From NCBI GenBank assembly GCA_002633005.1, contig NMRA01000079.1, forward strand, positions 919,148-983,147: a stretch of DNA of 64,000 bases, in the 5' to 3' direction. Under the pieces are notes generated by a model. It did not search any database. It was not told where the DNA came from and was given only the letters and a program-made list of their open reading frames with translations. This document shows positions 1,225-54,447 of the stretch, piece by piece. Within the stretch, counting starts at the first letter, position 1. Every line of letters starts with the position of its first letter. Both the position numbers and the translations under genes were made by a program. The DNA is from Phoronis australis. Taxonomy: Eukaryota; Animalia; Phoronida.

Positions 1225-1445
1225 TAACGACGGCGCTTATGTTGCCATATTCGACACCAATAAGACTTGGGGTACCCACCTGCAAGAAGAACTTTTGTCA
1301 CAGGGTAAGAAAGCAAAATTTTATACTGTTGACGTCACCGACGAGGGCCGGTGTGCTGAGAGCGTCCAAGCAGTTGCAGATGACAACGACGGCGCCGTGA
1401 ACTACTTGGTTAACAGCGCCGCCTACTTCGGAGGCCTGAACACTC
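1225..1445 (+). CDS. SDR internal exon (beta2 to beta4, NSAA motif)
   Basis: Acceptor ttcttcag|t, donor actc|gtaagc; encodes NDGAYVAIFD...LVNSAAYFGGLNT. Confidence 0.88.
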
Positions 1446-15490: not shown

Positions 15491-15808
15491 ATGAATGAAA
15501 TCGAGAATATTTACCACCAAATTGATGGCTTTGGATCCTATCAGATTAGAACTTTCATACTTGTTAACCTGTTGGAGTTTTGGGCAGCTATGGCCATGAT
15601 GTTGCTGGTATTCACGGGTGCCAAACCCGATATGGTCTGCGGTATGGAGGGAAACGAGCAGAATGTATCCGTGCGACATGGTGTCTGGGAGCCTTCATAC
15701 CTTCACCTAAACGCATCCAGGAACCTGACGAAGGACGTGTGTTGGGGACCAAATTCGATTTGCCCCGGTCTGCGGTATTCGGAAGAATTTTCATCGATTG
15801 TTACGGAG
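15491..15808 (+). CDS. SLC22 gene 1, first coding exon, variant 1a (TM1 + extracellular loop)
   Basis: ATG...SIVTE|gtaatt, phase 0, open frame, 3 Cys, sequons NVS/NAS/NLT. Confidence 0.8.
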
Positions 15809-18800
15809 GTAATTAACTGTGCTTCCACCTCGTTGTTGAAATAATTATTATAAAATTTGTTCTGTACACAGCACTCTCAGCTCATCACTAACTCTTGGCT
15901 GACATGCTTCACTCAAGTGACACTTTGGTATCGCAGTCATGCTTCAGTGTCACATAGAAAATTAAAGTCAAACATTTGTCTAGGGGCATTTCTGACATCA
16001 TTCTTACCAACGGTTTTTCTTTTCATTGTTGCACGAGATACATGTACATGTACATGTATGTAATCAATACCCTCACAAAGGTGTTTCTCTGCAGAGTCGG
16101 GATGTTTTCAGATCAGACTATGTAATGTATAGACTCTTGAGGTAAAAGTGTTATGTGTCTGAAATTAACATGTAGAGTTTGGTGTTTGAGTTCATGACGT
16201 GATACTTTTTATTCCTTAGGTGAAAAAAGAAGTGTACATGTCTAGGAAAAAGGTGGTATCAGTCACATGACCAAATTTTGCATCTAACACCTATTTTGAA
16301 AGGGCTTGGTGGAAAATAATTAAAAGCGCTTCCTAAGGAGAACTTTGCATACATCGTGGTATCTGGTTAGACATTTCTGAGTTACGTTGCTCCAAAGGTT
16401 GCCAAATTTAGATATTTTTGATGGTCTTAACATAACGGTTACCTCTTTGTGTTATTCTTACCGTACATACTCTATGATCTTATTGTTTGTTTGCTGATTT
16501 TAATGGCTAATACTGAGGCGTTGGCTATCAGAATCCATCACAGTATAAAACCAAATGCTATTACTTTTCCCTGACTCATTGGTTTGAAACACGTGAGGTT
16601 ATCGACAACAGACCAATTTAAACAGTTGTAAAATCACTGACACTCTTTCACTGTTGACGAGCAAGTTTGACATGTAATAGAACTGACCAATAGACTAGCT
16701 TTCTGCAATCTCGCAATGGCCAATTAAATTCCAAGAAGGCAAGTTGGAAGGTGGACTGTAGTAAAACCCCGCAACTCTGTAGGGTATATAGGGTAAGACA
16801 GCAGGGGACTCGAGTCGAGTTTCTGTAGTGCACTACAGACGTTAACTTTGGTGTTGGCTTAGTAACAAAGCTAAACGAAAGGCTGACGTTATCTTCGCGG
16901 TTTACGCCGACGCATCTCTAGTAACGGTTTAACTCGGTGGTCTTAGAACATCAGAAACAATTCGTATAAACAATACTTTCTCTCAAAGAGCCGAGAAAGG
17001 TAAAACTTAGATCCGGACAGCCAAATATTGGCGAGAAGTTAAACGCGGACCTTGGGAGTTCAAAAACACAGTGGAGATGATGAATGAAATTGAGAATATT
17101 TATTGCCAAATTGGTGGTTTTGGGCCCTATCAAATTCGGGCGTTTGCCCTAGTAAACTTTATGGAGTTCTGGGCTGCCATGACTATGATGTTGCCAGTAT
17201 TCACGGGTGCCACACCCAACATGGGCTGTAGCCTCGAGGAAAACAAGAAAAACGTTTCCCTGCAGCTGTTATCATACGTTAACTCGTCCAAGAACGAGAC
17301 GATCGGTGTGTGCTTGGGACCAAACTTCATTTGCCCCGGTCTATGGTACTCTCAAGAGTTCAACTCGATTGTTTCGGAGGTAATTGGATGTGCTAGCTTG
17401 CTATTCTGTTGCTGCTAATGAGTTGCTGGAAATGGAGTATTTGATGAATTTGGATATTTCCATTGGTACGTAATTATTCCCCCCACGACGTTGTAAACAC
17501 CGTACTCTTAATCTGCTAGTTAATACAAGGTGAGCAAAATACATGTAGCTTGTCAAAAACTCTCCCCAAAATAATCTCTTGAACGACTGAGTGACCTGGT
17601 TACTGGGAGATCGATGCTCGATGCTAACCTGTTCAAGTGGTACTACCCCGCAAAAGCCGAGTTTTTTGGTTATACTTACAGCCATGCTCCATCAACGTGT
17701 GCATGCGCTTTAAGGCTGAGATAAGGAGATCCGCTAACTTCTCACAATATGGACACGAACCAAAATGCTGTCGGCATACCTTTTTAGGGATTACGAGGGA
17801 ATTTAAATTCTGAAAACTCCGGTTGTCTCCACTCTCACGACATCCCAGATCCGCTCCTGAGTGTGGTTGTACTATTCGAAGCGTGGGTTAGAGGAATATG
17901 GAGGCAGCCCACTCCTGTTTTAAAAAGACGCCGTTTCAGGGCTGTTGTGGTCGATCAGCCTCGCGGTATGCTGCATATTTATGAGTTTATTAGTTTATTG
18001 GATGCCACGTCCTATTCTATATGACCTTTTGTTGTCGGTACAAACAAAATATATTCTACCCCTGTAAACATGTTTGACTATCTCACGTGAAATGCTACCT
18101 GTTCAGAAAGAGTACCTCTTCGGGGTCATACAGTGTAGTTCTTGACGATAACTAATGTACAATGTATCAAGAGGACAATAAATAACTAGGAAGATTATTG
18201 TCACGGCGTGACAATAATGGACTCTGCGCGTGCGTATTAAAGGAATTGTTATGGGAAGTTACTGACAGCAACCCGTTTACCAATATGAAAATTAATTCTT
18301 TAAAATTGTAGGAGAAATTACATGTTAATATTTTGAAGACCTTTCCAGTAATTGACCTCTTCCGGTGCATTATGAGCCCCGATGAGAGAATAATTGTAAA
18401 CTCGATTAAAAGTGTGGTTAATGCTAAAAATCACAGATGTTTTACTTTAAGCACTTCAGAATACAAGATGAATGAATTGGTCAAACTTTCAGAAGAAAAA
18501 TGCACCTAATGACCCCATGGGTGCACCAAATGACCTGAAAATTTAGAATGCAAACTCAATCGCACTTAGTAAACAGATATATAATTTTGAAGTCTCTAGC
18601 TTAAAATTTTTGTTTGCACCCAATGACCTTTGACCTATTGTTTCTGATTGGTTAGGCCTATTGCAAAGTAAAATAGGGTTTTCAATTGGCATGTTGACTT
18701 ACCCCAGTGTGCTAAAATTGAAAAGAATTCCTTGAAAAACGTAAGAGATATAACATTTTGACATAATTTCTATAAACAATTTATATGCTGTGATGTACAC

Positions 18801-21800
18801 AAAATACGTTGGTAAACCTTTATTCAGCGACTTTGAATTGGTTGCATCAAACGTTTGTCTGAAATCTTAGGTCACTATTCAAGAAACATATTCGAGATTT
18901 TGTTGTGTATAACAGATATTTACGTCTACATTTTTTCTTGACAATGTTATCGTCATGCGCATACTGAATAAATTAACCAAGCGCTCAAGAACAAAGTGAC
19001 GCGAAAAGACTTTGGGGTGTGTAACGATTTTTTAACAAGTCAAAAAGTCTTTTTGCGTGTCATTGTCTTTGAAAATGATGTCACCAAAGCTGATGGTCAA
19101 CAGCGTTCGAAATACACGCTGACCCGGTGTCCTATTCCAGCCAAATTGCGGCCGATCTAGGAACTTTTAAAAGTTAGCTTGGCACCTGGGCCAGTAAATT
19201 TTCAGACTAACTGACCCAGCGTGCACATTTATTCGCTGAGGTTCGATCACTGATAGTCAACGAACTTCAGGGCAGATTTCGTAAAATTGTAACTTTGACC
19301 GAGATTATAGATAGCAAAATCTTTTGTGAGTTGCTGATAAGTTGCGGATTCCTTGAAAGGTCAAAGGTTAAACATTCTTAGATTATGGTTTGAGTAGTCA
19401 CATACATGGGAGACAACTTTACCCAAACATTAGAACTCTCTGTAATAAGCACATTTTCGTAATTCTAGGCTACACAGAATTGTCGTGAGCACTTGACAGG
19501 GACCTCAGGGGTCTCACACTCCACTGAGTTATCCACATTATTTTGAAAGCACTTTACCCAGTCACACATTGTGTGTCATAAAAGAGATAATTAGGCATAC
19601 CAGTGGCTGACGCAGCAATATACTCTCGTTTATCACATTAGTGTAGACTCACAGTTGAACTGTGGTTTTCTGCTGACCCCAGACCGTCCGGAGTTGCACC
19701 ATATACCAACTCCGGACGGTCTCTCACGACGATTTAGCGTTATGAGCATTATGATAATATTTAGACTCGTGGGAAATCTGCAAAAAATATCTATACACAC
19801 TTTTAGTATCTGGCTTTTCACATATTTAAAACAAAGTCTATAATAATTAGGGCTCAACGGATTTAAAATTATCTCAAACCTCATTTAGTCACCTTCATCC
19901 TAAGTCATACATCAAAAATAGGCTATGCCAACTAGTATACATTTTGTGAAAGAAAAATGACCCGAGTTTATAAAGCTATGTTTACAATCATGTGTCAGTG
20001 TTATAATAACGCTGATAGCTTTTAAGTAAAATTTTCATTTTTTTAAGAAAAGTACATTCATAACAAAATAACTCATGGCCGATTTTAAGGAAACTCTTTT
20101 TTAAATTAAATCTTCACAATTTACCTGTTAAGAATTTTCAATTACTCGTTTAGTCTTGTTCCTATGCCAAATTGACTCGCAAAACGTAAGGTACTTTTTG
20201 TAAAAAGTAGCAGTCGTATTCGTCTATGTTACGGTACGCAAAAACTAAGCCCATGAAAGCAAAACCTTCAGAGCGTTTTTGAGATTGGTGAATATATAAA
20301 TTTTTATAATTGGGAAGCCGTTTTCGAGAACTCGTGTTCCTAAGTTCAAATTAAGTCGATTTGCCGAACCTTAGAGAAAAAGCGTTAAACGTTGCGAGTC
20401 CTCAAAATCTGACGGTTATTTTTTTAATTTACGGTGAAAAAAACTTGTATTTGGCAAATTTAACCTATAGAAGCCAAACCATATTCGCTATTTCAAAATT
20501 CACTCACAATGTCAGCTGGATTTGCCGTGCTTTATTAACTTAATCATCGCTAAAGCGTTGTAATTTTCTGAAATCAAGACGGGGTCAGCTATTAAGTAGT
20601 TCAACACTTCATTGTTCCACGTTACTACATGTACGTCTACCATACCAAACAAGTAGAAGTGGCTAGCAGCTAACAGATCATTTTTGATATTAAAAAATAA
20701 AGGAAACATGCTTTGACATCAGCAACAATTCAAAATCCTTGCGAACAATTAGTAAAAATCCCTGTTGACTGCCAGGGGTATGTATTTACAAAATGTTCTC
20801 CTAAAGCTTAGTTCTTAATGACAAACGTGTCGGTGGTGGCCGTACCCTTTTCTCCCAGTGCCACCAAACATGCTTCAATTGAACAGGATAATTTCACCAG
20901 ACACGTGCATGACGCACTACTAGCGTCATCTGTGTAGGTTCATTGGAGGGGGGGGGGGGGGGTNTAGGTAAGGTAGGCAAAACGGCGTGCCTGAGTTGCT
21001 TTTTCCATAGGCTGCTCAGCACTGAAAAACGTGGGCTAAAGCCCCCCTAGAACCTTTTGATATACTGCCCATAGACCATGGGCTCTGGAGCACTGGGAAA
21101 AGGGGAGGGCTATAGCCCCCAGCCCCTTATGGTTAGCCGCCCGTGATTTCTCGATCAAATTCAAATTGCTATGTTTTTTTTTTCATTTTGAGCTTGGAGG
21201 GTATAAGTACACATAGTGGCTGATAGTTGTAAATCATGGACGCCATTCATACACAATATACCTTGTGAAACTGACATTAGAGGTCAGTGAAAGCAATTTT
21301 TGAACCCTGTTAAAAGTCATGCAACTGCTCCAAAAGGGCTGTGTTCAACTAAATACATGTTAAAAAGGTTACATATACATATTATACTCCTGACTGAGAA
21401 GATAATTTTTATTTCCCCCTATGGGTTAGTGATTAGCCACGCCTGGATTGTACTCTCCCAAGTGATGAGGAGCGTAAAACTTGTGGTAATATGTTTGCGA
21501 GTAAGGCGATGGTCACGTGTTTCAACATCAAAGACGCAGGGCACTGGCTTTAAGATGTTTTTTGCAGATTAAAGCAAAGGAAAACATTCACGCAAGGAAA
21601 TCGATTTTTATGAAAACACTTCTACGGCAACTGTTTGAAAAAGGTATAAAAAGTTATACTCGTACAGCTCTTATCAACTCCGTACATTACATTTGTGTCT
21701 CGTTACTGTCGATTAGCTTATTCCACGATTTCCATGCAGATGTAGCGAGGTAGAAAACAAGACCAAATGACGATTTTAGTCCAAACGGACAAAACGACCT

Positions 21801-24800
21801 ATTATCAGAAAACGGTTTAACCCCTAAACTTAAAAGCTGTTACCAAATACCGAACAATTTTTACTTATAATTCTACGCACATCATTGGAGTGCCAATTAA
21901 TGAAACTCCGGTACCTGAGCTACAAAGGAGTATGGTGACCTGGTAGTTCAAGCTACACCTCAACGGTCGCCAGCTTTCACCTGCCATCCAGTTTTGACAG
22001 CACTTTAGTCTTTCAATTTTCCACGATGAGTGATACGTAGCGAGCAATTTTTACACGATAGTGTCACAACGCGGCATGAGTGAATGACGAAATAAGTCAC
22101 TAACTTACTGTGGATTTATTTTATTTACTTATTGTGATATTTAAAATGAGTGTGGCCTCTTCAGTGATACCACTGCTTTCCAAGAGGGCCCTCAACAAGA
22201 AAACCAGTAATACAATACAATAAAATAATAAAACACTAATTAAATACAAGAAATAGAGATAGAGTAAAACAGGTTGAGAGTTAAGATAATGAATAAATGA
22301 CGAAGGATGATGAAAATTGGATTAAGAGAGATGAAATAGACAAAGAGATATTATTAAACATTGGGAGTATTTACAACAATATACCTTCTTACGTGAATCA
22401 CAGACCCACTAGAAACAGTGCGAATTGTAAGAAGTCAAAGGTGACATTTTAGACATCCTATAGTAAACGCAAGGTTTCAAAAGAAATCACGCTTCTCATG
22501 TTTTTTCATCCAGATGCAGAATGAAACATTTCGGTCAAAAACGTTTTGATTTTAAGACATTGTTAAAAGCTATATTTCCTTTAATCTTTTAGTGGGACTT
22601 GATATGCGACTTGGGGTTTGTGAGTGACCTCATCACCACAATACAAATGGTTGGGGTTATGGTCGGTGCCTTCGTGTGCGGACAACTTGCTGATGTTTTT
22701 GGACGGAAGAAGACTCTCTTCGGTGTTTACATTCTCATGATAGTGTTTGGGTTCGTCTCGGGATTCTCATCCCATTGGCCAGTCTATGCCGCCATGAGGT
22801 TTCTTACAGGAGCCGCTCTGGGAGGTTTGTACTTCGAGAATACATTCTTGTGTGCTTAAAGCTCCGCTACTTTTTGATAAAACGTTTGCTGGTCGACAGG
22901 TCTCTGAAAAAATCTCAAACATAATATAACTACCGCTACTACAGCGCGAGATTTGTCGGTATTTAGCAAGCATTGAAATAGTTCTTAGACGAAAACAAAT
23001 GGGTACGTATTTAGCCAAGGTTTCCTGAGCCGAACCTAGTTTGTAGTAGTAAACTACATCGCAGCAAAATTTGGAAAAATTCAACCAGTTTAGTTCCCAA
23101 GTTTATTCTCCCATGTTTATTGCCTCTTTACATGTATTCGGAATCTAAGTTTAGCTTACCTTGTGTGACCTATTGTCCAGGTCATCAGAACATAACTGAC
23201 CTTCAGGTTACTACTTTCTCAGGTCAAGAGGTCATTCACAAGTGCTGCTACATGTATAATGGCGTGACAATAAACTTGCCCACTATCTATAAACGGTAGA
23301 GGATTGTAATTATAATGTGTGGGGCATAAACTCACCAACAAGCATGTGAATTTAGTCAAATTTTTGGCAAAATTCCAGAATTGAAGGTACATCTTTTCTG
23401 AATGTAGAAACTGTAGATTTTAACTGTCTACTTAACAAAAGTCTGTCTTCATATGGCCGTGTTATTAACTTTTACCAAAATTTAGCCTTGAAACAATGTT
23501 TCTGGAAAGATAAAGCAACATCAGCAAGGCCAAACTTCATTTCACATAAATATTCTTGTATAAATTCCGAAATCAGTTTTCAAAATGTCCTTTTTTATTC
23601 TATGCAGCTTTTAAGGTGAAAACAATCATTTAAGCCTCAATTTTTATCGGTTTCTTATTCAAAAGTAATCCTGTTTTAAAATCAGTGTGGAGAAGAACCT
23701 GGATTGCATACTGTCTGTTTCAGTTGAGTCCACTCAGCTGTTTTTGAGATACGGTTTGGCAAAATTGCAAAATTATCTTCACTCATAACAACAAAGCTAG
23801 ACATTAATTTTCAACTTGGAGATAATGGTTAATATCAAAAGTAAGTATAGGATGACCGTTAATAGGCAGATTGGATTTACAATTTCCCGCTTAAAAAATC
23901 GAAATAATGTAACATTCGATTGCCAATCACAAAAGAAAGACACGAAGTCGTTAGTTTTAAAACGGTTTATTTAAAATATGTTTTTACACACGTAACACTC
24001 TTCTTGAGTAAAACTGAGGATTGCAGACTAGTTTTATAAATAATGCAGCCAGAACATCACATTCAAAATCACTGTAAAGACAGGATATACAAAATGTGAT
24101 AAAATTGTAACATTGATTAAAATCCATTTTAATACGGACATACACAAAGACAGAAAAGTGTATATCGCTGGCTACATAAGCTGTCACAACGTGTCCACAA
24201 TGACCGGCTAACGTTGATCCCTACTAAAGGTGCTACCCGGTTAATCACTACTGTGTATCACACTATGTAGTTCACATGGAAACTTGCATGTCTATCATTA
24301 TATATCTATGAAATAAAAGTAAAATACCTACAAAAATACTACAGAGCACAACTGCATGTAAGCGGCAGGCATCCAGTCTTTCTGCAAATAATCTACCGCA
24401 AAATGTCATATACAATGTAAAACGTCGAGTACACAAATCGGGTAACCTAGGTTAATAGTATACAAAACATGACTGTCATTAAGAAGGCTTAAGTCAGCAC
24501 CATATCAAAGTTGCTCATCAAATCTCCTGTAGCAAATCAAAAGGACACGTAACATTTTTGTCTGCGATGTCAGGAAACGGTGGATACACATCTGCTCAGT
24601 AAATGCATTTAAAGGCCCTTTCACACTGATTTATCTCCGGTCTGAGCGGAGTGATGACGTATACTGCACAGTTACATGTAACTGCAACGTTCATACTGAC
24701 TTCAGTAGTTAACGGACATCGAAGGAAACGGTACATGTAGGTGACGCTGTTGTTATCGAAGTAATCGCAAGGTAGCGCTGATGCATCTCGTGCACGCCAA

Positions 24801-27800
24801 GACAATATGGGAGCATAATCTTGTGTTACAATAATTCATACCCTACAGGTAAACTGAAATAATCTATACAACTAAACGTACAGAATTACCCTCACTGATG
24901 TTACAGTGAGACGCTTTCTAAAACGACTCAGTCATACTAGTAACTAGAAGTCCGAGTGTGGTAGCCTCGGGTTCCAGAGCCAAACGACCCTTCTGTTCCT
25001 AACCAGCGAGTGACAATTGTTTGAGTTACTGGTTTAGATTACACGGCACTAAAATAAACAATAAGTATACTAAGGTAGTAACAAACAGCTTACGCCTTTC
25101 TTGTTCCTGCCGTGGAGGCACTCGAACGTGGATTTTGCTCGACCAAATTGTATTTGCCAACGAGCCGACTAGGAAGCTGACAACATAGCCATCAGATCAC
25201 TTGACATCCCCCCATATGCCGCAGCTGGACCACTGCCTGCACCTTCTTGCTGAGCTTAAACACCGCCAAAATAGCCGCTTATTCTTAGATCATCTTTCTT
25301 GGAAGTGCCCTACCACGTTCTTGCACGACGAAGTTAAACTTTCGTTGAGTCACTACCGTAATTAATGCGCGGTTGAAATAGTCAGTAACAAAATATACCA
25401 ACGCAGCAAAATGTGATATATTATGTGATACTAATCGACAAGAATTTTTCAAAGGTCTTTAAACACACGTTTTGCTCAATTTGCGAACTTGTTGAACTGA
25501 ATGTCCTAAACGAATCGAAAAGCGTAGACAAATATTAACACGCTCTGAAGTCCAAAGCCGAAGTGTTTGAAGAACGCCTCAACAAACAACAAATTCAAAA
25601 GTGTAAAGTATAATTGCAGTTTTTTTCGTCACAAATTCAAATAAAATACCAAAAGTGATCTCCGTCTAAAAGTAAGAAGTGTTTTAACAATTGAAACAAC
25701 TAGGCTGAGGTAATAGGGTTTTATGACCGTACTGTGTTCACAGACCATACAATGGGGCTAGTTACATGTACGTATAGAGGTCTTATGCTGAAACATCCAT
25801 TTCGAGGATGTCTGTAGATACGCTACCGTAATCAAACTTAAAACTTTTGAAAAATGCCATTTGAATATTGAAAAGGGTCCAATAATGCACTCCAGTGGTA
25901 TTAATAGAAGTGTAATTTCGACGAATACAGAAGCACTTATTGTAGTTCGGGTGTCATGTAGCGTGTTTAACAGTCACGCAAAATCGAGAGGGGTCAATGA
26001 TACAATGGATAGCTACACTGTAGGTTCTATTGACCGAGAAAGGCCATAGGCAGAATTGACCTATCACCAGGATTTTGAGTAATGGCTTGACTTCATAAGG
26101 CGCCATTTTACCCGTCAAACCACACCTTGCCGGGTAAAACTTATTGTTTGTTTGTCGACTTTTCGCAAGGAGGCGGAGATTGTGATAGGTCAATTTTAAA
26201 GGTTTTGCCAATGTTACAACAAAAATACTATTATGGTTTCCTTTCGTGGCAGGGTTACTCGTTGTATCGTTTATTGTTCCCATGGAAATCATATCGCCTG
26301 GGTGGCGGAACCTGTGTGGTTGTCTCGGTGTATGGGGCCTTGGAGTTGCTTGCTTGGCCCTTCTGGCGTACCTATTGCGGGATTGGCGACATCTATCGAT
26401 GGCTTCTACAGCACCAGGTTTGATCGTCCTATTGTCGTGGTGGTAAGTATATGCGTAACGCAACAAACGACAATCGTAAAGCACGCCTTATTACTATGTT
26501 ACTGGGGGATTTTGCTGAAGTAGAGAAGAGGCGAATGAATATGTAGGACGCAAATTGTGGTCCAAGAAGACAAGGGGGCATTTTAATTTATTTTTAAACG
26601 CGCTATGTCTAATCATTGCACATTAAAAGGGTCTTTTCTCGAAGTCAACATGTTTTCCAATGCAAGCGGCCACGAAGAAGACGTGCCTCCTGGAACAGCT
26701 TGGTGGGCCTTAGTCTCTGGTCCCACGTGATTAGCCGCCATTACTTTTTGAAAGGCTTGCATTTTTCATTCTATTTTTGCGAACAAGTGAATTTAAATTG
26801 ACCAATCTAGAGTTGTTTCTTTGTGTTCCCAACCGGAACATCTTATAAATAGACACGTATATCACATCTGAAGAGCGATTGACTTTGAAGAATCAAAGTA
26901 GCACAAAAGCTTAAGGTTATGTGAGACACTAGAATAATTTCAGATTTGACTATTTTCGGAATATCTAATCTCAAAAATGGCCTCTTTTTAGAAGCCATGC
27001 TTTGTGCGCTGTTCTACAAAAGGATGTTTGAATTTGTTTTTAAAATTGTTATTTCATCTCGAACATATACTTTTAGCCAACGAAATGTGACCATTTTATT
27101 GATGTGTTTTGCTATGAATATATCGCAAATTCTCTGGAGATGTCCCGAAAGTTGCAAATGGGACCTTTGTCAGAACGCACGATAGAGCAGTCGGATATGC
27201 TGTTTGACGGTCAGTTATGCACCTAACTTTCAGAAACCCCTTTGGACGCAGTTACTACGCACGCATTACAATGACCTGAAAACACATATGTTGATTCATT
27301 GTTAAAGTGGTATAGTGGAAAATGTTTCTGTACATCAACCGGTGTCTCCGTCTTCCCTTGGTGTCATGACTTTTGATCTAAACTCCTATTGTAATGCACA
27401 AGGAAAATATCACATTTCCAATGTCTCCACGACAATAAAGTAATGACCGAAAGATATTGTTAAGGACAGAGGCTGGTAATTTGTTAAAGTGTTTGGCTTC
27501 TGAAAATTGAATTCCTCGTGAAAAGTAAATGTTGATTAATTCTTCCGCCGACTAAATACTGTACGAGAAACGTTAGCGAAAACGCTGTGCTGGGTTATAC
27601 ATGTATTTCTCCACGCCAGTTTTCAGTCAATGCGTGCACATTGAGATGCATTCATTCAATGTGGTAATTGGCATTTGTGTTGCGACAAACGGAAACAAGA
27701 CTGAGCCTGGCTACTAACGAAAGAATGGTCGATATCAGGCCTCTAAAAACCGGTAACATCTGGAGTACTGAATATACGGGAGACTCCAAAATTTAGCCTT

Positions 27801-30800
27801 TGTGTCCTTATTTTCGCTGTCATTGATAATTTGTTTCTTCAGGTGGATTCCCGAAAGCCCGCGATGGCTTGTCATGCAAAATCGAATGCAGGAAGCTTGC
27901 GACGTCATTAGAGCCATGGCAAAATGCAATAAAAAACCTGTGCCAGATCTGTCCGGCCTATCCGCGTATGCCAAGGTCTGTATAAAAACGATAACGCCAT
28001 GTGAGGTTGTGCTCCTAAATTTGTCATTGATGCTTAACTAGACTTGTATCGGATCTTAGTATTGGCATTAGTGTAGAAGACATTGATATTCCGACCTGTT
28101 TACGTAGGATCTCCGTGAGACCCTAACCACAGCCTACAGTGTATGCCTACTACATTGAAATATACGTGTGAGATTGTGACGGTTAGAAAAACATGTACGA
28201 CAAGAAGCCATATGGGACAACGTTCTCAAGTGATTTGGTCTGACGTCAGATGTCTGTCCAATCTTTTTCCGGGTCAAACAGTTTGAGAGGATTTCTTATT
28301 AAAGGCACATAGAAAATCAGAGGATTTACATTCAGGAATTTGTTTTGACCCTGTTTTCTCATTTTCCAAAAGATACACGCATTCTAAAGTGCAAATGTTT
28401 GGAAAAACTCCTCCCAGTTGCAACGTTGAGATACAGTGTACATGTACATGTATGAACGTGTTCTAGACATTTTCTATAGAGAGTCTACAAACCGTCCTTG
28501 ACCGGGACTAAAACCCCAGTCTCTACATGTCCTTCAAAAAGGTTATACAAAGTTACTCTGTATTACACTGTAGATGGACGCAATTTCTACATGTAACATT
28601 TGCTAACGACAAATTGCTCTTTCTCCAGAAAGAAAGAGAGCATCAAAAAGCCATTCGAGCCTACAGTTACTGGCATTTATTCAAAACAAGGAAAATGGCG
28701 AAGATAACTTTGCTGGCTATGTACGCATGGTAAGAGTTCCGTATTAATTTTGTGAGTGAAACACTGATAACGTTTTGGATACACAAGTATTCAATTATTG
28801 AACGATGCCAAAACCTTCATTCATTAACGAATACATGATTTGAAATGGCGTGGTGTCAATGTTAAAGGAGAATACCACCCGGTATATTTCGTTTTTTACC
28901 GTCTTAATCGGGCTATATCCACATAACCTCGTATACTGCCGATCTCATATCTGTGAGGAGTACACGACGCAGCGACGTCAGTGGTTCTGCAGCTGTGTAT
29001 GTGCCGCCATGACGTGGCGTATCGTTCCCTCTAGTACGAACCGTGAAGCTGTGACGAAAGCGGGTATATCGTAATTTTCGATTTTCTCGGGAACTTGAAG
29101 TGCTTCAAGAGTGGTTCGCGGCAGTAAAAAATGAAAAGCATGCCGTTGTCACCAGGTACATGCATGAGTCGGTGAAATATTTCCGTACCTGTGGCCGTCA
29201 TTGCTTTGTTTCAAAATTAATTATTTATTCTCACCCTAACCAACGTTTATTAAAGCTGAAACAAAGTGTCTCGAAAGACAGGCTCAGCAGACAATTTGTA
29301 ATGCCTTTTTAGTGTTTGTGAGTGCAAATGTTTTGAGAAACCAACACTGAATGAATCATATGGTGTTTCCAACTTCATATGCAATAAATGTAACTGACCG
29401 GGCACCGAGGCCGTGTGAGTGCATGCTGATTCAGTGTTTGCTGACAGTAAGCTGTTGTGAAACAATAACCGTATTTTACATGCTATAGTCAGACATTAAG
29501 GGAATCTTTTCTTAAATATATATCTACATCATTCGAGTCATTGTTATTGTACACCTTTTGCCCTTTACGGTTCTGTGGAAGGGCAATCTGGCTTCGGGTC
29601 TCCTGATAGTTATGTAAGTAGATTTGCAATTTTCCGACGTTTTTGCCAAAATATTCACATACACATTAGTTCTTTGGTTCACTAGTCTATTCGTGACCGG
29701 AAATTCTAATGTTTAACTTTGGTAGCCGACTAAACCGGTTGGTTTATGTTAAACTTCGTGATGTCTCCAGATTTGCCGCCGGCGACAGGCCTACTCGGGT
29801 TCCGAGCCAGTGGTTTATAACGAGTGTTTTGAACTAAAAAATTCGTAAGTCTAAAATTACAACACACGGATATGCTCTCCTGTCTGAAAGTTTCACGGAA
29901 GAGTAATTTCAATTTCTAACCGAACAGATCCAAACTTCCCGTGATGGACCACTGTAAGCTGGTCTACAGAACTACGTAGGCTACGATATGTTCAAAATGT
30001 CTATAAATCCGTAACAGCGACATGAAAAAACTCGTTTGATTAAAAATTCAATGTATTTTTAATGGCTTCGCATCGATTTTTGATGATTTCTTGGTGTAAA
30101 GCGATAAAGTAAAGCGCTAAACTGACACCACCAAGCGTGCTGTGAACCGCTGAACAGACCGCGTTAAAACCAATGACGTCATTGCTTAATTTCAGTACCT
30201 CTGTCGGCCGTTTGGTGTCAGGTAAAAGAACTGAACCTGCTGTTATCGAGTGGAACTAGGCTATATAAATTGATACAAACTACGATGTTTTTTCCCGGCA
30301 TTCTCTACTCTAATGCGTAGACCTAATGTCGTAACTACATGTACAAATAACGTGATCGGCACTGAGCGTGCTAAGCATTTTATTTATGAGATACAAAGAC
30401 TGCAACTGCCGCAAATTAAACACAATTCGTAATCGCTCATAGTGGAAACGCTTCCTAGACTATAAAACGGAAGCACTCTGAGAGAACGAAATTTGGTTAT
30501 ATCGACTAAGGAAGCCAGTATCAAGACGATGTCAGTGTCGATCAACAGGCGCCAACGCCGAAACACCAACGGCGATTCAGAAGATGACCTTGAAGACCAC
30601 GACGTGCATGTAGCCGCCGTCATTTTTTTTAAACACAGACAATGCCACCAGAATCACAGATAACAGTATGGACGAAGGCGAAAGCTGAAGCCAAAGCACG
30701 AAGCCAAATTTGAAACCACCACCAACGCTGATAAACGACATCTCATCATCGTTGTCGTCAGCAGCATCAAAAAACGGTGATGACAAACGGTGATGAAACA

Positions 30801-33800
30801 TGCTTGTACAGTAGAATGGAGATAAATCGACAACCGAAGCCACAAAAAGAACGCTTGTCAAAGCCACGTACCGAATTCATTACGTACTATTCTCATGGAG
30901 TGAAAAATCAAGACATCCCCGCTATCACGATCTAATCTAGAATCACGCTCAATTAAACGTGTCAAGCACGCTTTTTGTGTCGGAACACAATATTGTGGTT
31001 AAGCTGGCCAGAGCTTACAGTCACCCAAAGGAATCAACAGGTGAAAGTTAAGTCTATTTTCCCTTAAAGTCAACCGTTTCCTCCATTCGAAGTTTTTTGG
31101 TGAAAGAATTCATCATTCCGTGTTCGGTGTCCGTAAGTTGGGTAAGGTTTTTGAGGATGGCAACTTTACGTGTGTGCAGCAGTTCGTTTACGTTAACAGC
31201 GTCGCATTTGATTTACTGCAGTGGTAATCCCTATAGCTGTGTGTAAGTGGAAGGTTCTTGAATATTCGGTTATATCATTTTGTTGCATTTTTCTCATACG
31301 ATTTTGATACTTAATTTTGAATAATCATATGACCACAACGTTTTGTTTTTGGTCCAAATCGATTCACATATGCCAAAGATACGCCTACATATCCACATTA
31401 AAAGAAGGTAAACATTTTCATGGAATTGTATAAATGCGCATAAAGTTAATGTTATTACACTTCGTTTAATTGCCGTGGGCTTTAGAGTGATCTTTTAAAT
31501 TGCCACAAGAAGACTTTACTGTGTAACCATCTGCTTTCCAGAAAAACTTAGGCAAAATCGACCTCCCGAATAAAGAAGTACAAGAGTCCTTCAATACTTG
31601 GCCCCCTTGATACTGGAATAAATTAAATTGTACCACCAAAAATCACTATACCAAGAAAAAAAGCTAGCGTTACAGATGTGCCAGACACTATCTGCACACT
31701 TTACAATTGTTCCATTGAAGAAAACTGTCTGTGACCAAATGTTTTCTTGCTGGGTCTTAGTCCATAGGTGTGTAAACAACCAACCCTAGTGGACTGAGCT
31801 CAGACCTTGAGCGAAATGATTTGAAACACATCTGTTTCACATCCGTTGAATGTCATTTGCAAGTAGTACTTTTAAATAGCGGTTACCGTTAGGCGACCTG
31901 CTTACAACATAATTGCTGGATTACTTGAGCATCAAATGAAAATAGACAATAAGAGAACTGGACTATGTAAACATTTGTTTGCCTCTGTCAAACTGATGAC
32001 AACAAGGCTGTTTCCCGACTGGCCGACCAGGCAGATGATGCCAGCGCAGTAGTAATGATTATAAAAAAATAACCAGTAACTCATCTACAACGAGTCGCAC
32101 CTAGAAGCGGATGGCACACTTCAGTACCCCTTGAGGTTTAGATATACCTACTTAGACACTTTTAAAAGAATACATCTAAGCACTGCCGAGCAAGAGCTAC
32201 AGTAGAACAAACATTGAGTCCCGGCGTTGTTAAAGTCATTTGCCTCTGATTTTCGTCCAAATTTAACAGCCTTTTACGAGTTATTTGGACAATTCATGAA
32301 GACAGAACTATGAATGCAACATGTAGCGCGCGATTTAATAGCTGAGTTCGAGTTCTTTGTCAACCTTACTTGCAAATGACAGGAGAGGTCCATGGAACAC
32401 AAGTTACACGTAGCTTGAGACGAACACTGAAATACAATTTTGGAAACGTTTCACCCTAATCATCAGTAAATCTTGAAAAACTGGTAGGGCACAGTTTTTG
32501 AAGCTCTTGATGGTATCTATGAATATGACATCGGCATCATCTCGACAGGTGCTCTCCACGCCCTTTGATGCAGTGGTAAACCTATTCCAAAATAACCAAT
32601 ACAAATCTTGGTGCAGTGAAGTTTCATTAAACTCTGACCAATTTTCCACTAGCATACTTCTTTATTGAGACGAAAATTTGAGTTCTGAATGAAGACTGTT
32701 GGTTAAATATTGGTGTGCTAATCCTGTATCACATTAAGGATTTAGATAACCAGAAAAAGAAATTTGATTACCAATTCCAAAATCATTTGCCTCCAGATGT
32801 TCAATTTTGATAAACTGTATATTGGTACATTCTGGTGTGTCCTTTCACTGGTTTAAAACTTGATGTCGCCTGTTACTTTAGGTTCACGTGCACGGCAGTG
32901 TATTATGGGATCAACTTAAACATGAAGAATCTTTCAGGAGATCGCTACGTCAACATTTTTCTGACTGGCATCGTGGAAATTCCAGCGCTTTTGTTCGTGT
33001 TTTTCATCAATAACAAGTAAGGATGGACGTACTATATATTATTCTGTTTACAAACATTTTTGTATAATTTTTAGACCTTAACTTAAGCCGACTGATTTGC
33101 GTAGGAGTGCTGGCTACTTTGATTGTTAATCCATAGCCGTTCGTGCAGGTACGTTGGCACTTGAGACTTATAACTGGGAGAATTTATCTGCCAAAAAAAC
33201 GAGAAATTAATCAAGCCACTTAGGCTCATAAAACATCGCCGGCACAGGACTTGACTTCTGCTGTCAACAAGATAGCAGAAATCGTCATCGACTCGAAAAA
33301 GCACTCCGTTGCGAGTCCATAAATGTGACAGTTACGCATTCGCTGTCACTTGTCTTGCCGACTCATTCAGCAACAATAAAGATAGATTAGGGATTTTTTT
33401 AAACTGAGCTCGGATTCGGAGTTCAACCTTATCTATTGAAGTGTTTAAAAAGACAGAGGACATTTTCAACGCACACTTGCTTTTTGATCACGTGACTCGT
33501 TTAGCTCCTAACTGCGGCGTAATTTCTCATGATATTGTCCAATCGTACACCAGTTCTTGTGACCTATTTATTAATCTTTATCCCACAGAGCAGGACGGAG
33601 GTACACATCTTCCGGACTTATGTTGACTGGAACAGCCGCCATGTTCACAATTCTTGCCCTTGACATTTCAGGTAATGTAATACTAATATTACTTCTACTC
33701 CTCCATCTACTAGTACTACTATTACTACTGCCAGTGCTAACACTACCAATACCAATACCATTAGCATTACCGCACCACGTACTATCCCTATTATTACAAC

Positions 33801-36800
33801 TACAATCGCTGCTTCTACTGTAACTGCTACCATCACTAACACTACCAATATCATTACCATTACCGCAACACGTACTATCCCAACTATTACAACCATCGCT
33901 GCTACTACTGGTACTACTACTATTGTGGTAATATATTTACTGCTACTACTACTACGACTACTGCTGCTGCTGCTGCTTCTGCGTCTGCTGCTGCTGCTAC
34001 TTCTGCTACAACAACTGCTACCAGTAATGATACTGCTGTTGTCCCTGCTACGACTAAAGAGTTTCTAGTAGTTGAAGCACTTTATTTCCTATTGTTATTC
34101 CTACGATTATTGCAATTATGAACAGCCGCCATAATTCCGTTGCTTTATTACATATTATGTAATAAAGCAACGGAATTATGGCGGCTGTTCATAATTGCAA
34201 TAATCGTAGGAATAATAATAGGAATTAAACAAAGCTATTACTATTACTTCTACTGTAACTGTTACTATTACTATTGCTATCATTATTACTATAATTTCAC
34301 TATTATTACCTTACAAAAAATTACTGTTATTCATACTACTTTGTTTTATCAACTTGGAATCAAGCTGAGATTACTACGTTCCTACAAGCGAGGGACTTGT
34401 TTATTTCCAGGAAAGCTAAATGAACTACCAGGCCTTACAATCGCCATCGTTATATTTGGTAAAGGTGCCATATCAGGAGGCTGGGCAGCTACGATGATTT
34501 TTTCAGCAGAAAGTTTTCCCACTGTAGCTAGGTAAGTGTTAATAATAATCTTTGGCCATTTCGGATCGGTTAACATATATTCATACAAAGTTTAATTTTT
34601 TGCGACCCATAATTTCGGCTTAAAGAAAATATATTGTGTATTTTAAGCTCAAAAGGCGAGACCTGAAATTCCAAACAGATATTGGCTATTGTCTTGCACT
34701 CCCACAAACCATACAAAAACGACGATTAGTGTGAAAGCTGGAATGGGGCTTGGAGACACAAGATTTCAGGGGCCATTCATATATTCACGAGGTTCAGGCA
34801 CAGTAGTGTGGGCATGGTAGGGTATTTCCCTCCTGGACACAAGTTGCCATTTGTCCTGCAAGATTGAAAAAGGTCTTGGAGAAATAGAGAATAATAACGA
34901 TGCATCTTGTACTGAAACCTATTCCACAGAGGAAAGTAAGACACCTCTGGATATTGCACGAATCTGTAAAAAAGTAGGTATCAGCATTGATCTACTGTAT
35001 TGAATCCCAAGGTCCATCCCAAAGACACAAATTTGAACATTAGCAGTGACGGGGCTGTTACTCTAGCAGTAAATGAGACAATAAGCATTGGACAGGCAAT
35101 GCTATCAGACTTCGAGAAAGGCTAGCAGTACGCAAGGAACACAAGTAGGTAATCACTGATGGGAATCTCTTTCCCTTGATGTAGAACAAGAACATTGTCA
35201 CTAGGTATTATTTGGGGACATCCCACGAAGAAGCCGGCTCCATTTTCTGCATCAGGACGTGAAATGTGTTTTTCGGTTGTTACGGATGACATATACACTG
35301 TATGTATTCGTGCTTCGTGTGCATTACTATGACAAGGTGCAGCTTTAAATACCACAACCACGAAATCACCTTGTAAGCGTAGAACTGTCACAGACATAAA
35401 AGTTGACAGTAGAAACGTGTAGTGGTATTGTGAAGGTCTCATCCTGCCGCTCGATGCACTGTAGGGATGCCGTAACAGGGTGGCATGGCACTATGGAGTT
35501 GGAAAGGGGTCCATCGTCAAAATAATGAAGGCAGAACATGAACTGTCTGCCCTAGGCACTATTAATGCGCATTTTTGTGATGTCACAAAACAGGACACTA
35601 AATGTATGTGTGTCTGTTATGGAATGATAAGGAACCTGTGTACAGTGTACTTGTATGGGGAAGAAATAACGGCAGGGGATATATATGAACGTCCGTCGGC
35701 CACCAAACTGTGTACTCTTTGGGTGGGAGAAAGGTGTTATAAACAAATAGCACTCACCATTTTCAATTCCGGAAGGTGTCCAACTCGCCCCTATTAGATA
35801 CTGGAGATGATTAGGTGTGTAGCAAAGGTCACATTCCATGTAATTCAAGCAGATTCAGTAGGATCGTCAATTGTCTCCCCTGCACAACATTTCGGGCATG
35901 TTACACAGCAGTGTGGTTACTTTCTGAGTCTTCAGTTGAATTAGCATTTGGAACTTTTTGTAACAGTGCTCTATACGATAAGGTATATTGTATTGAGTTT
36001 ATGCAGTTAAACATTTTGGTCATCCATTAGATCTACCCTGAGTATCAGACAATTCCAGAATTTGTAATGAGTGTTATACATTACACACAGTGCACTGTTT
36101 TTATTTGATGTAATCAGAAACGAGATTAAGTTCATCCGTACAAATACCAAAATAGTATAAACATATTGCCCCCCCCGTAAGAAAGTTACCAGCAGAAACA
36201 GAATTTTTAATTATGGCGCCTTTGTTTGCATAAATTATGCAAATTTATCATGCAACTTGTTAACTGATATCGTTAACCTTATTGACCATGTAGGAACATA
36301 CAGCCTGTAGGTTCGAATATCATGATTCACCTGTTGTACTGGGTACCGCAGTTGTAAACACAAGTAGCCTTAATTTGAATCAATTGTGCAAATTTGCATG
36401 AAGCATGCAATTTTTCATTCAAAAACATGCAAACTGATTTCAGTAAACTAACTTTCCATCAAAATGGAGGTGCAAATAGGATCTTTGGTTCCTGATACCG
36501 TAGCTATAAGTACATGAAGAATTTGAATAGACGCAGCCTTAATTTGCCTAAATTATGCAAATTGACGATGTATCCACCAAAAAAATTGCAACATAAAATT
36601 CTCGGACCGTGGAAACAGCGGTGAAAACTTCAAAGTCATGTGCCTGCAGTGCCTTTTGAATAAAGTAGAAGCAAATATAGAATTTTGCATAATGGATACC
36701 TTAATTTGCATATTTAAAAGATTCCAAGGGTTGCGATCGGTCTCCCCTTAAATTTTGGTTACTTAACCTTAAGGTACATGAAACAGCAAAGAAAAAACTT

Positions 36801-38070
36801 TATCTGGCAAACCCACTATCAGTCGCCTGGCTGATACATGTAGATGGTTATTTTGTATTAGCATGAATTTATGATAAAGTTGAGAATCGCTTGGGAGATC
36901 AGTATTTTAGACAATATCACCTCCTGATTTCAGAAACATTGGATATGCGGCTTGCTCGGTGTCTGGTCGAATCGGAGGTATCCTTGCCCCGCAGATAGTG
37001 TTTCTGGTAAGTTTGGTTCAAAGCACCATCTACGTGTGAAGCGCAGACTACAGCTGTACAATGGCAAGCAAACTCCTACATTAAAAGGAGGACATGATTA
37101 ACGAACGGGGTATAAAATCTTCAACAGCAGGCGCGTGCAACTGACACCAAATAATCACAAAAACAGTTTTCCCGTCATGCCGGCTAACTCCGTTAACATC
37201 AACATTACTGGTAATCATACTGATCATAGGGTGGCGAAGATTTACATGTACGGTATGTACAAAATGAATACCCCATCATACAAAATTCCTGTTAAAACCC
37301 CTTCAATTATTGTTGAAGACTAAATGACAAGTTTGGCTTCCGTCCAGCCGCCATGACGGGGAATTCCGGGTCATTTTGTCTGAATACTTTTTGTTTGTAC
37401 ATGTACTGTACTGTTAACTACATATGTATAACGTCGAACACAAGTTTGATATGATAATGGCCTGGCAAAACGGCGATTGGTTTAAATTTTTCGGTGCGAA
37501 TGAAGCGAACAGGGTGCACTGAAGTTTGACCCAGAGGACCCACTTCTGAATCAACGCCCGGACAGTATAATTCATTTTACCGTGCTGTCGGAAAGTGTGG
37601 TGACGTCGTCATCCGTGATTGCGCTTTTTTATTCCAACGCTTGCCACTTCCCTAAAGGAAATAACAATGGCTGAAAAAAGGTGTAACCAGAAAAATTACT
37701 AGTTAATGTCTACTTTAGGAAATACGTGGCTAACAGGCTGACGAAATAATTTTGTTTTAACAATAGGCCACCGCTATATTGTTTGTTCCCAATCCGGTGT
37801 AGCTGTTAGGGATGTGACGGAGTTATTTTGCTCCTAAATTGTTCACAACGCTCACGAAAGTAAACTCTGAAGGTACTTTTCCTTTGTTTTCAGAACGAGG
37901 TGCACACCGCCCTACCGTACATCCTGTTTGGCTGCCTTGGAGTGTTCTGCTGTGTAGGAGTGTTGTTTATACCGGAAACTAATAAAACGCCATTGGCGGA
38001 CGCATTTAAGCATGATGACTCCGAAAACAGAACGGTTGAGATGGAAGCCTTGAAGAACTCTGAGATTTGA
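15491..38070 (+). CDS. SLC22-family (SLC22A15/OCTN-like) organic ion transporter, gene 1, complete. Exon 1a 15491-15808 OR exon 1b 17077-17379; then 22593-22824, 26253-26442, 27843-27975, 28629-28729, 32882-33016, 33589-33671, 34411-34531, 36934-37006, 37894-38070 (520 or 515 aa)
   Basis: All introns are GT-AG and phase-compatible. SLC22/MFS signatures: GFGxYQ, SIVTEWDLIC, GQLADVFGRK, PESPRW, YYGINL, VEIP, AESFPTVARN, GRIGGILAP, PET. The short first extracellular loop resembles SLC22A15. Confidence 0.95.
17077..17379 (+). CDS. SLC22 gene 1, first coding exon, variant 1b (TM1 + extracellular loop)
   Basis: ATGATG...SIVSE|gtaatt, phase 0, open frame, the same 3 loop Cys, sequons NVS/NSS/NET. 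Confidence 0.87.
22113..22320 (-). mobile_element. Probable 3' end of an L2/CR1-group LINE
   Basis: The minus strand reads T-rich UTR, then the stem-loop-like gggccctcttggaaagcagtggtatcactgaagaggcc, then a (TAAAA)-type tail. Confidence 0.45.
22593..22824 (+). CDS. SLC22 gene 1 exon 2
   Basis: ttttag|TGG; WDLICD...GQLADVFGRKK...GAALG|gtttgt; 232 nt, same as the paralogue. Confidence 0.93.
26253..26442 (+). CDS. SLC22 gene 1 exon 3
   Basis: gcag|GG; LLVVSFIVPMEIISPGWR...RDWRHL...|gtaagt; 190 nt. Confidence 0.93.
27843..27975 (+). CDS. SLC22 gene 1 exon 4
   Basis: ttcag|G; WIPESPRWL...YAK|gtctgt; 133 nt. Confidence 0.92.
28629..28729 (+). CDS. SLC22 gene 1 exon 5
   Basis: ctccag|; KEREHQ...YSYWHLF...MYA|gtaaga; 101 nt. 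Confidence 0.92.
28866..30309. mobile_element. Non-autonomous Kolobok-type element, copy 2 (inverted relative to copy 1; gene 1 intron 5)
   Basis: TTAA-AGGAGAATACCACCC at 28862 matches the reverse complement of copy 1's right end. About 29700-30306 matches the reverse complement of copy 1's left part. THAP remnant on + (MTWRIVPSSTN...AGIS*F...EWFAAVKNE...FRTCGRH). Confidence 0.82.
31105..31805. repeat. Dispersed repeat family B, copy 1 (others at about 48905-49255 and 60645-61340)
   Basis: Shared blocks: ccgtaagttg, gtgcagcagtt..ttaacagc, tgttgcatttttctcat, gccaaagatacgcc, cagatgtgccaga, gactgagctcag. Confidence 0.8.
32882..33016 (+). CDS. SLC22 gene 1 exon 6
   Basis: ctttag|G; FTCTAVYYGINL...VEIPA...|gtaagg; 135 nt. 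Confidence 0.93.
33589..33671 (+). CDS. SLC22 gene 1 exon 7
   Basis: cccacag|A; AGRRYTSSGLM...LDIS|gtaatg; 83 nt. Confidence 0.9.
33676..34345 (+). repeat. Low-complexity (ACT/GCT/ATT)n trinucleotide tract in intron 7
   Basis: Degenerate actact, gctgct and tattac runs that produce spurious poly-L/V/Y ORFs. Confidence 0.85.
34081..34229. repeat. 149-bp near-perfect palindrome (74-bp arms, 1-nt spacer at 34155)
   Basis: Arms pair base for base except 34094/34216 and 34085/34225. Confidence 0.92.
34411..34531 (+). CDS. SLC22 gene 1 exon 8
   Basis: ttccag|GA; FGKGAISGGW...AESFPTVA|gtaagt; 121 nt. Confidence 0.93.
34640..36835 (+). mobile_element. Decayed Academ-like DNA transposon (transposase pseudogene fragments plus right subterminal region); boundaries approximate
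   Basis: Fragments 'LNPKVHPKD..NI..G....VNETISIGQAMLSDFEKG', XPG-like 'LDAL*GC..VAWHYGVGKG...L..LG...V.KQ...CYG' and Cys-rich 'ILEMIRC..PCNSSR...LPCTTF.AC'. Repeated TTTGCAT/ATGCAAAT motifs at 36220-36715. Confidence 0.65.
36934..37006 (+). CDS. SLC22 gene 1 exon 9
   Basis: tttcag|A; RNIGYAACSVSGRIGGILAPQIVFL|gtaagt. Confidence 0.92.
37152..37385 (-). repeat. Inverted copy of the 6880-7110 repeat
   Basis: ttttcccgtcatgccgg...ccgccatgacggggaattccgggtcattttgtctg. Confidence 0.7.
37894..38070 (+). CDS. SLC22 gene 1 exon 10 (terminal)
   Basis: ttttcag|; NEVHTALPYILFG...IPETNKTPL...NSEI TGA. Confidence 0.92.
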   Translation, partial: NEVHTALPYILFGCLGVFCCVGVLFIPETNKTPLADAFKHDDSENRTVEMEALKNSEI

Positions 38071-46880: not shown

Positions 46881-47204
46881 ATGAATGAAATCGAAAATGT
46901 GTACAGTCACATCGGTGGCTTTGGACCCTATCAAATACGGGTGTTTTTCCTAGTACGCCTTATGGAGTTCTGGGCTGCTATAGCCATGATGTTACCAGTA
47001 TTTATAGGTGCCAAACCCGGCATGGGTTGTTTCACCGAGGGAAACAAACACAACGTCTCCACGCATATTGGCCGTGACCAACTATACGTGTACAACCTTC
47101 ACGTTAACTTGTCGACTAATGAAAATAAGAATGTCTGCCGGGGACTGGACGCGATTTGCCCCGGTCTGTGGTACTCGGGCGAATTCACTTCGATAGTTAC
47201 CGAG
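46881..47204 (+). CDS. SLC22 gene 2 exon 1
   Basis: MNEIENVYSHIGGFGPYQ...SIVTE|gtaagt; in-frame TAA upstream at 46842. Confidence 0.9.

Positions 47205-51994: not shown

Positions 51995-52056
<62 letters not shown>

Positions 52057-54401: not shown

Positions 54402-54447
<46 letters not shown>

What the first reader, a model, noticed from the sequence alone, without database searches (positions are those of the whole stretch)
15491..22824. SLC22 transporter with two duplicated, interchangeable first coding exons (variable-exon/constant-region design)
Seen: two homologous ATG-bearing exons 1.3 kb apart. Both are open and end SIV(T/S)E at a phase-0 GTAATT donor. Both keep the three loop cysteines and three N-glycosylation sequons. 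Only one set of exons 2-10 follows. By eye they are only about two-thirds identical in protein, so this is not a haplotype artefact, and the differences concentrate in the extracellular loop. Established: SLC22 exon 1 encodes TM1, which lines the substrate pocket, and the disulfide-bonded loop involved in trafficking and oligomerisation; variable first exons on a shared constant region are known from UGT1A and clustered protocadherins. Inference: one locus makes two transporters with swapped TM1/loop modules, by alternative promoters or mutually exclusive splicing. I do not know of this design in SLC22. Caveat: 1a has IDGFG in place of IGGFG and may be a decaying or orphan exon.
Basis: partly seen in the sequence, partly recalled or inferred. 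Interest (0 to 1): 0.85.

Follow-up and report, generated by a model that had tools for sequence, protein, structure and literature searches.

The report
SLC22 gene with two first exons
An invertebrate SLC22 transporter gene has two old, intact copies of its first coding exon in front of one shared gene body; RNA shows the upstream copy spliced over the second one, which is likely a minor alternative start, and the swap is predicted to change the outer loop and expression rather than the cargo pocket.

Summary
The architecture is real. Exons 1a (15491-15808) and 1b (17077-17379) are open, end at phase-0 GT donors and precede one set of exons 2-10; a separate paralogue (1c plus its own body) follows. 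No 1b-to-exon-2 joint was listed; 1b has only a few sense reads, under a tenth of 1a's depth, though bin arithmetic fits two reads ending at its donor. 1b shows no decay: it scores as well as 1a on a homologue profile, but its own omega is unresolved. TM1 positions matching known pocket or gate residues are identical in 1a and 1b, except L/M28, so a specificity swap is not predicted. An N at 20964 marks a likely gap in intron 1. The design is known (UGT1A, GCNT2, 40 human N-terminal exon swaps, three of them in SLC genes). I found no SLC22 case in my paper searches or in this scan's notes.

The parts
15491..15808 (+). Exon 1a: major first coding exon of gene A (N-terminus, TM1, extracellular loop; 106 codons)
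   Evidence: Open, phase-0 GT donor; 6+7 junction reads to exon 2; depth about 8-10 in X1 and X2; omega 0.13
17077..17379 (+). Exon 1b: second, intact first coding exon (100-101 codons) inside intron 1 of the 1a transcript; likely a minor alternative start
   Evidence: Open with ATG and GT donor; homologue-profile score equal to 1a; a few sense reads, no joint listed
16860..17076 (+). Sense-transcribed stretch running unspliced into the 1b ATG: 5' UTR of 1b or intron RNA of 1a (undecided; 5' border approximate)
   Evidence: 3-4 reads deep in X1, 7 other letters and a 1-nt insertion just before the ATG
20964..20964 (.). Single N after a G run: likely assembly join of unknown size inside intron 1
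   Evidence: the Ns at 6613 and 52057 are flanked by tandem near-duplicates
22593..22824 (+). Gene A exon 2 (first constant exon)
   Evidence: joint to exon 3 in 6/12/1 reads
26253..26442 (+). Gene A exon 3
   Evidence: joint to exon 4 in 9/5/2 reads
27843..27975 (+). Gene A exon 4
   Evidence: joint to exon 5 in 18/9/0 reads
28629..28729 (+). Gene A exon 5
32882..33016 (+). Gene A exon 6 (predicted)
   Evidence: AG/GT borders and open frame; no reads laid
33589..33671 (+). Gene A exon 7 (predicted)
   Evidence: no reads laid
34411..34531 (+). Gene A exon 8 (predicted)
   Evidence: no reads laid
36934..37006 (+). Gene A exon 9 (predicted)
   Evidence: no reads laid
37894..38070 (+). Gene A exon 10, coding part to the stop codon (predicted)
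   Evidence: no reads laid
46881..47204 (+). Exon 1c: single first exon of the tandem paralogue gene B
   Evidence: expression not tested
54789..63648 (+). Gene B exons 2-8 (same exon lengths as gene A, 77% protein identity); the rest lies beyond the window

Best explanation
One SLC22 gene body has two homologous first coding exons, of which 1a is spliced to exon 2 over 1b and 1b is likely a minor alternative first exon with its own predicted promoter. In transcripts that start before 1a, 1b lies in intron 1; it has no clear acceptor, so it is skipped (shown by 13 junction reads). Transcripts that start between 1a and 1b would use the 1b donor (inferred). Promoter choice would therefore give a 520 aa or a 514 aa transporter with the same TM2-TM12. 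The pocket- and gate-equivalent TM1 residues are the same, so the swap is predicted to change where the gene is expressed, and the glycosylated disulfide loop (folding, trafficking, perhaps affinity), rather than the cargo class. 1b is probably the original first exon of gene A, because its distance to 1c equals the distance between the two gene bodies; 1a is an equally old or older copy that now dominates (inferred).
For: 1a-to-exon-2 joint: 6 reads in X1, 7 in X2, 0 in X3, sense strand, GT..AG; the loose ends behind 15808 read as exon 2 with agreement 0.94 and 1.0. 1a coverage starts just before the ATG, with no upstream loose end among the 14 of 17 rows shown. 1b keeps ATG, frame, donor, 3 Cys and 3 sequons although the pair is at dS 1.00 (0.69-1.58), omega 0.21, with unalignable flanks. 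In simulation a neutral 1b would stay intact in 2-22% of runs after 0.1 substitutions per site and 0-6% after 0.2. On a profile of 25 homologue exon-1 rows 1b scores 83.3 bits, the same as 1a; 0.1 of neutral drift costs about 24 bits, sd 9. X2 has exactly 140 nt in bin 17310-17449 and none beyond, which is what two reads ending at donor 17379 (70 nt each) would give. dS 1b-1c 0.74 against body A-B 0.72. Positions 29, 32, 36, 37, 40 are identical in all three copies; they align without gaps to OCTN2 N32, G36, L37, V40 and OCT1 F32 (roles from passages of PMC12780140 and PMC10940649).
Against: No 17379-to-22593 joint among the 15 of 25 joints shown, and no loose end at 17379. 1b depth is about 0.3 (X1) and 0.9 (X2), against 7.7 and 9.9 for 1a, within the sense-strand intron background of introns 2-4 (about 0.2-2.8). 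Sense reads also lie at about 16330-16760, so the 1b reads may be 1a pre-mRNA. The 140-nt match is arithmetic on bins, not a seen junction. Omega on the 1b branch is unresolved: best value near 1, with 0.24 not rejected. No promoter was mapped. No relative with the same layout was found. The tree groups 1a with 1b only weakly (95/40), so the order of origin is open.
Confidence: 0.55

Rival explanations
1. Exon replacement in progress: 1a is the leftover head of a third tandem gene that lost its own body; it now splices onto gene A, and 1b, the old first exon, was recently silenced and survives as an intact intronic relic.
For: All 13 junction reads at a first-exon donor come from 1a. 1b depth is at intron background. 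1b-1c dS equals body A-B dS while 1a is further out (1.00 and 1.61). Best omega on the 1b branch is about 1. The region is a tandem cluster, and a partial tandem copy of exon 1 also occurs in a bivalve gene model (P0001).
Against: 1b has lost no profile score and would rarely survive 0.1 neutral substitutions per site, so silencing must be very recent, on the scale of allele differences (about 4%). No relic of a lost body between 1a and 1b (tblastn). The X2 bin arithmetic hints at use of the 1b donor.
Confidence: 0.3
2. 1a and 1b are internal mutually exclusive exons behind a shared non-coding leader, or are sometimes included together.
For: Both donors are phase 0; the frame upstream of 1b is open from 17011; earlier notes report several mutually exclusive exon sets in this genome (unchecked).
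Against: No upstream loose end at 1a. The DNA before both ATGs is purine-rich; the best YAG within 250 nt has 9 pyrimidines of 15 and lies 130-215 nt upstream. X1 reads run unspliced into the 1b ATG and carry a 1-nt insertion just before it, which would shift a read-through frame. No 1a-to-1b joint was listed.
Confidence: 0.08
3. The assembly misleads: the join at 20964 hides a further gene body, or a misjoin, so the two exons do not share exons 2-10 as drawn.
For: N at 20964; the other two Ns mark overlapping joins. Reads differ from the window's exon 2 at 3 of its first 30 letters in both runs, which could be a close paralogue.
Against: 1a and 1b lie on the same side of the N with none between them, so two heads precede whatever body comes next. 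Junction reads cross the N and continue through exons 2-5 at the expected coordinates. The 1b-to-exon-2 distance (5.2 kb) matches gene B's intron 1 once the 2.5-kb duplicate is removed (about 5.1 kb).
Confidence: 0.07

Closest known systems
N-terminal tandem duplicated exon substitutions in human genes (40 of 236 events, PMC9741552 passages; SLC25A24, SLC41A3, SLC44A2 in the supplement table of PMC8373072)
   Same: Two homologous alternative 5' coding exons on one gene body, including in solute carriers
   Different: None of the 11 SLC rows in sheet 1 of that table is an SLC22; here use of the second exon is not shown and the pair looks lineage-specific
Variable-first-exon clusters UGT1A, GCNT2, UGT2A and clustered protocadherins (PMC1885805, passages)
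   Same: Homologous, same-frame first exons in tandem; the upstream one splices over the downstream one to constant exons; birth-and-death with relic exons
   Different: Only two exons; no conserved upstream promoter motif seen; the variable part is TM1 plus loop and does not change the pocket-equivalent residues, whereas the UGT variable exon holds the aglycone site; omega is about 0.2, with no sign of positive selection
Lophotrochozoan 'organic cation transporter protein-like' SLC22 group (Haliotis XP_067666322.1, Patella XP_050402198.1, Owenia, Lingula)
   Same: Body about 45-51% identical; homologue ORFs break at the same exon 1 end; conserved loop Cys
   Different: No pair with the same body and a swapped exon 1 among the 44 proteins that could be split; 1a, 1b and 1c form their own clade (100/99)
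Human OCTN2 (PDB 9pdq), OCT1-3, OAT1, URAT1
   Same: Best solved relatives of the family profile; TM1 aligns without gaps
   Different: OCTN2's sodium-site S28 and N32 are L/M and A here, so the cargo and coupling cannot be transferred

Membership tests
SLC22 (MFS) | MFS sugar-transporter-type body whose closest solved relatives are SLC22 | tested here: met
   Exon 2 hits PF00083 and PF07690 above cut-off and OAT1/URAT1 at 1e-12; family profile hits 25 SLC22 chains
SLC22 (MFS) | Glycosylated extracellular domain between TM1 and TM2 with conserved Cys | tested here: met
   Three Cys and three sequons in each of 1a and 1b, one more Cys at the start of exon 2; C50 aligns with OCTN2 C50
SLC22 (MFS) | Transport activity and cargo | not testable with these tools
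   Needs uptake assays
Variable-first-exon / constant-region gene | Tandem homologous first coding exons in the same frame before one constant region | tested here: met
Variable-first-exon / constant-region gene | Upstream variable exon splices to the constant region, skipping the downstream one | tested here: met
   13 junction reads
Variable-first-exon / constant-region gene | Each variable exon is separately spliced to the constant region | tested here: inconclusive
   No 1b joint listed; indirect hint of two reads ending at the 1b donor; 18-19% of three runs read
Variable-first-exon / constant-region gene | Each variable exon has its own promoter | not testable with these tools
   No CAGE or 5' RACE; upstream regions do not align
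Variable-first-exon / constant-region gene | Both exons under purifying selection | tested here: inconclusive
   1a omega 0.13, p 6e-6; 1b omega from about 0.2 upward; no profile decay in 1b
Variable-first-exon / constant-region gene | Variable exon changes ligand-binding residues (as in UGT1A) | tested here: not met
   Pocket- and gate-equivalent TM1 positions 32, 36, 37, 40 identical; 28 is L/M. By alignment only; no model was built
Mutually exclusive internal exons | Shared upstream exon and an acceptor before each copy | tested here: not met
   No upstream loose end; no good acceptor; unspliced reads into the 1b ATG; low depth limits this

The most novel reading that the evidence does not exclude
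A first SLC22 with a working variable-exon design: two promoters put two long-diverged extracellular domains (39% identical, 6-residue indel) on one translocation core in different tissues, a natural domain swap that tests what the SLC22 loop does for trafficking, partner binding and affinity.
Probability: 0.3. Interest if true: 0.55.

Novelty: new member of a known kind. Interest (0 to 1): 0.33.

Why it matters
If 1b is used, this extends the UGT1A/GCNT2 design to SLC22 and gives a natural swap of the extracellular domain on a fixed core; that domain's effect on transport is described as structurally unexplained (PMC12780140, passage). If 1b is silent, the locus is a snapshot of first-exon replacement in a tandem cluster, which is ordinary birth-and-death. 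Either way it is a two-exon, apparently lineage-specific case in a transporter of unknown cargo, and the pocket is not predicted to change, which limits the surprise.

Tried and rejected
No whole genome is held for this window, so the rest of the scaffold and sister genomes were not searched. The run search listed no indexed RNA holder; four runs came by species label; X4 contigs do not cover the exons and X3 barely expresses the gene. X3 depth over 1b appears only at 80% likeness and only as partial matches, so I discarded it as likely paralogue reads. Protein searches with 1b (longer; 0 of 40 candidates) and with the three-exon profile (near; 1 distant hit of 11) found no close relative; the representative search gave 118 hits, none at 1e-30; the metagenome scan gave 0 of 94. 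Same-name protein sets from a chiton, cuttlefish-like contigs and Lingula are not first-exon swaps. Of 79 full-length proteins, 44 could be split at the exon 1/2 motif and 35 were not tested; among 55 pairs with body over 90% alike, the lowest exon-1 identity was 0.78, between two oyster species. Clusters at 90% and 50% could hide swapped isoforms. Rejected: haplotype duplicate (dS 1.0); 1a decay from D12 (G in 22 of 25 homologues, but 1a is the expressed exon and no other letter was listed at that codon among 40 of 48 rows); loop-focused divergence as special (same for 1c); more hidden exon-1 copies. No fold or complex was run. Paper searches for an SLC22 precedent: (listings and abstract starts only), none found; subscription papers are not covered.
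Full report
What is there. The window holds two tandem SLC22 genes on the + strand. Gene A has two candidate first coding exons, 1a (15491-15808) and 1b (17077-17379), then exons 2-10 (22593-38070); either first exon gives an open protein of 520 or 514 residues. Gene B has one first exon, 1c (46881-47204), and exons 2-8 of the same lengths as in gene A before the window ends. DNA and protein profiles find no fourth copy. Family assignment rests on Pfam and PDB hits. The nearest named proteins are mollusc, annelid and brachiopod 'organic cation transporter-like' proteins at about 45-51% body identity, so the animal is likely a lophotrochozoan.

RNA. Three stranded raw-read runs and one contig set with the same species label were laid, 18-19% of each raw run. 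The joint from 15808 to 22593 is read 6 times in X1, 7 times in X2 and not in X3, where the gene is nearly silent. Exons 2-3, 3-4 and 4-5 join as modelled. So 1a is the working first exon and its transcript skips 1b. A joint from 17379 was not among the 15 of 25 joints shown, and listing needs three reads. On a finer lay 1a has depth 7.7 and 9.9 and starts just before its ATG. 1b has about 0.3 and 0.9. In X1 a few sense reads run unspliced from about 16860 into the first 60 coding bases. In X2 the bin 17310-17449 holds exactly 140 bases and the next bins none; 70 exonic bases lie in that bin, so two reads ending at the donor would give this. That is a hint from arithmetic, not a seen junction. 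Sense reads also occur at about 16330-16760 and in introns 2-4 at similar depth, so pre-mRNA explains the depth equally well.

Selection and age. Pairwise omega is 0.21 (1a-1b), 0.17 (1a-1c) and 0.34 (1b-1c), each below 1. On the three-branch tree 1a has omega 0.13 (p 6e-6 against 1) and 1c 0.23. The 1b branch is short and uninformative: best value near 1, 0.24 not rejected, below about 0.2 disfavoured; free ratios do not beat one ratio (p 0.11). Two other tests say 1b has not drifted for long. It scores 83.3 bits on a profile of 25 homologue rows, equal to 1a and near 1c (86.4), while 0.1 neutral substitutions per site cost about 24 bits. An unselected 1b would keep ATG, frame and donor in 2-22% of simulations at 0.1 and 0-6% at 0.2. 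Recent silencing, at 0.05 or less, is not excluded. dS between the gene bodies is 0.72 (0.61-0.83); 1b-1c is 0.74, 1a-1b 1.00 and 1a-1c 1.61, with overlapping intervals. This suggests that 1b is gene A's own head from the A/B duplication and 1a an equally old or older copy, perhaps left from a third gene. The protein tree joins 1a and 1b only at 95/40, so the order is open. RNA alleles of 1a differ at 6 non-synonymous and 5 synonymous codons among the rows shown; one gives the P39 found in 1b, 1c and 22 of 25 homologues, so the window's L39 is an allele.

What a swap would do. Residues 1-50 align without gaps to OCTN2 and OCT1. Passages of PMC12780140 name S28 and N32 (sodium site), G36, L37 and V40 (outer gate) on TM1; PMC10940649 names F32; PMC10643130 names N35 of OAT1 as gate and inhibitor contact (position 36 here by the one-residue offset, alignment not shown). 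The loop is 39% identical with a 6-residue indel, about the same as between separate paralogues. PMC12780140 links this domain to trafficking and notes effects on Km. The likely effect is on expression pattern and loop properties. No structure was predicted.

Mechanism and rivals. Best reading (0.55): alternative promoters, 1a major, 1b minor. Shown: layout, 1a splicing, skipping of 1b, intactness of 1b. Inferred: a 1b promoter, a 1b junction, any functional difference. Main rival (0.30): 1a replaced 1b recently and 1b is an intact relic. Internal mutually exclusive splicing (0.08) lacks an upstream exon and acceptors. An assembly problem at the N at 20964 (0.07) cannot separate 1a from 1b, and reads cross it.

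Comparison with what is known. Homologous alternative first exons are an established class: UGT1A, GCNT2, UGT2A and protocadherins (PMC1885805, passages), and 40 N-terminal events among 236 human tandem-exon substitutions (PMC9741552, passages), including SLC25A24, SLC41A3 and SLC44A2 (PMC8373072, supplement rows; first 30 of 58 places seen, covering all SLC rows of sheet 1). I found no SLC22 case (listings and abstract starts), in 44 split homologue proteins, or in this scan's notes. Those notes, unchecked, report several other tandem exon sets in the same genome, often with one copy dominant in RNA.

Verdict. A real two-headed SLC22 gene; one head proven, the other intact but unproven. New member of a known kind; interest 0.33.

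Noticed in passing
window 6346-6880 (N at 6613): 267-nt tandem duplicate, 98.9% alike, on both sides of a single N, overlapping the end of a short-chain dehydrogenase exon; likely an assembly overlap, not an exon duplication.
   Followed up: no
window 49545-54538 (N at 52057): 2.5-kb tandem duplicate, 93% alike, around a single N in intron 1 of gene B; likely two haplotypes joined end to end.
   Followed up: partly
window about 1196-9013, + strand: Exons of a short-chain dehydrogenase gene (PF13561, PF00106) upstream of the SLC22 pair.
   Followed up: no
window 2036-3727 and 28861-30293: Two copies, on opposite strands and 67% alike, of a 1.5-kb element, one inside intron 5 of gene A; looks like an old mobile element; no Pfam hit above cut-off.
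   Followed up: partly
window 31130-31821, 48909-49212, 60650-61345: Shared non-coding stretches (66-76% alike) in intron 5 of gene A and introns 1 and 6 of gene B; dispersed repeat.
   Followed up: no
P0001 (Tegillarca granosa KAJ8304585.1): A bivalve gene model made of an SLC22 exon 1 followed by a partial second copy of it, so tandem exon-1 copies may arise repeatedly in this family.
   Followed up: partly
window 15491-15650, 17080-17240, 46881-47040: All three copies replace the family's conserved F-E-T-P-x-x-W TM1 pattern (F28, T30, P31, W34) together, a lineage-specific TM1 change that predates the duplications.
   Followed up: no
window 18153-19750: Highly covered dispersed repeats inside intron 1, read on both strands from many other loci.
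   Followed up: no
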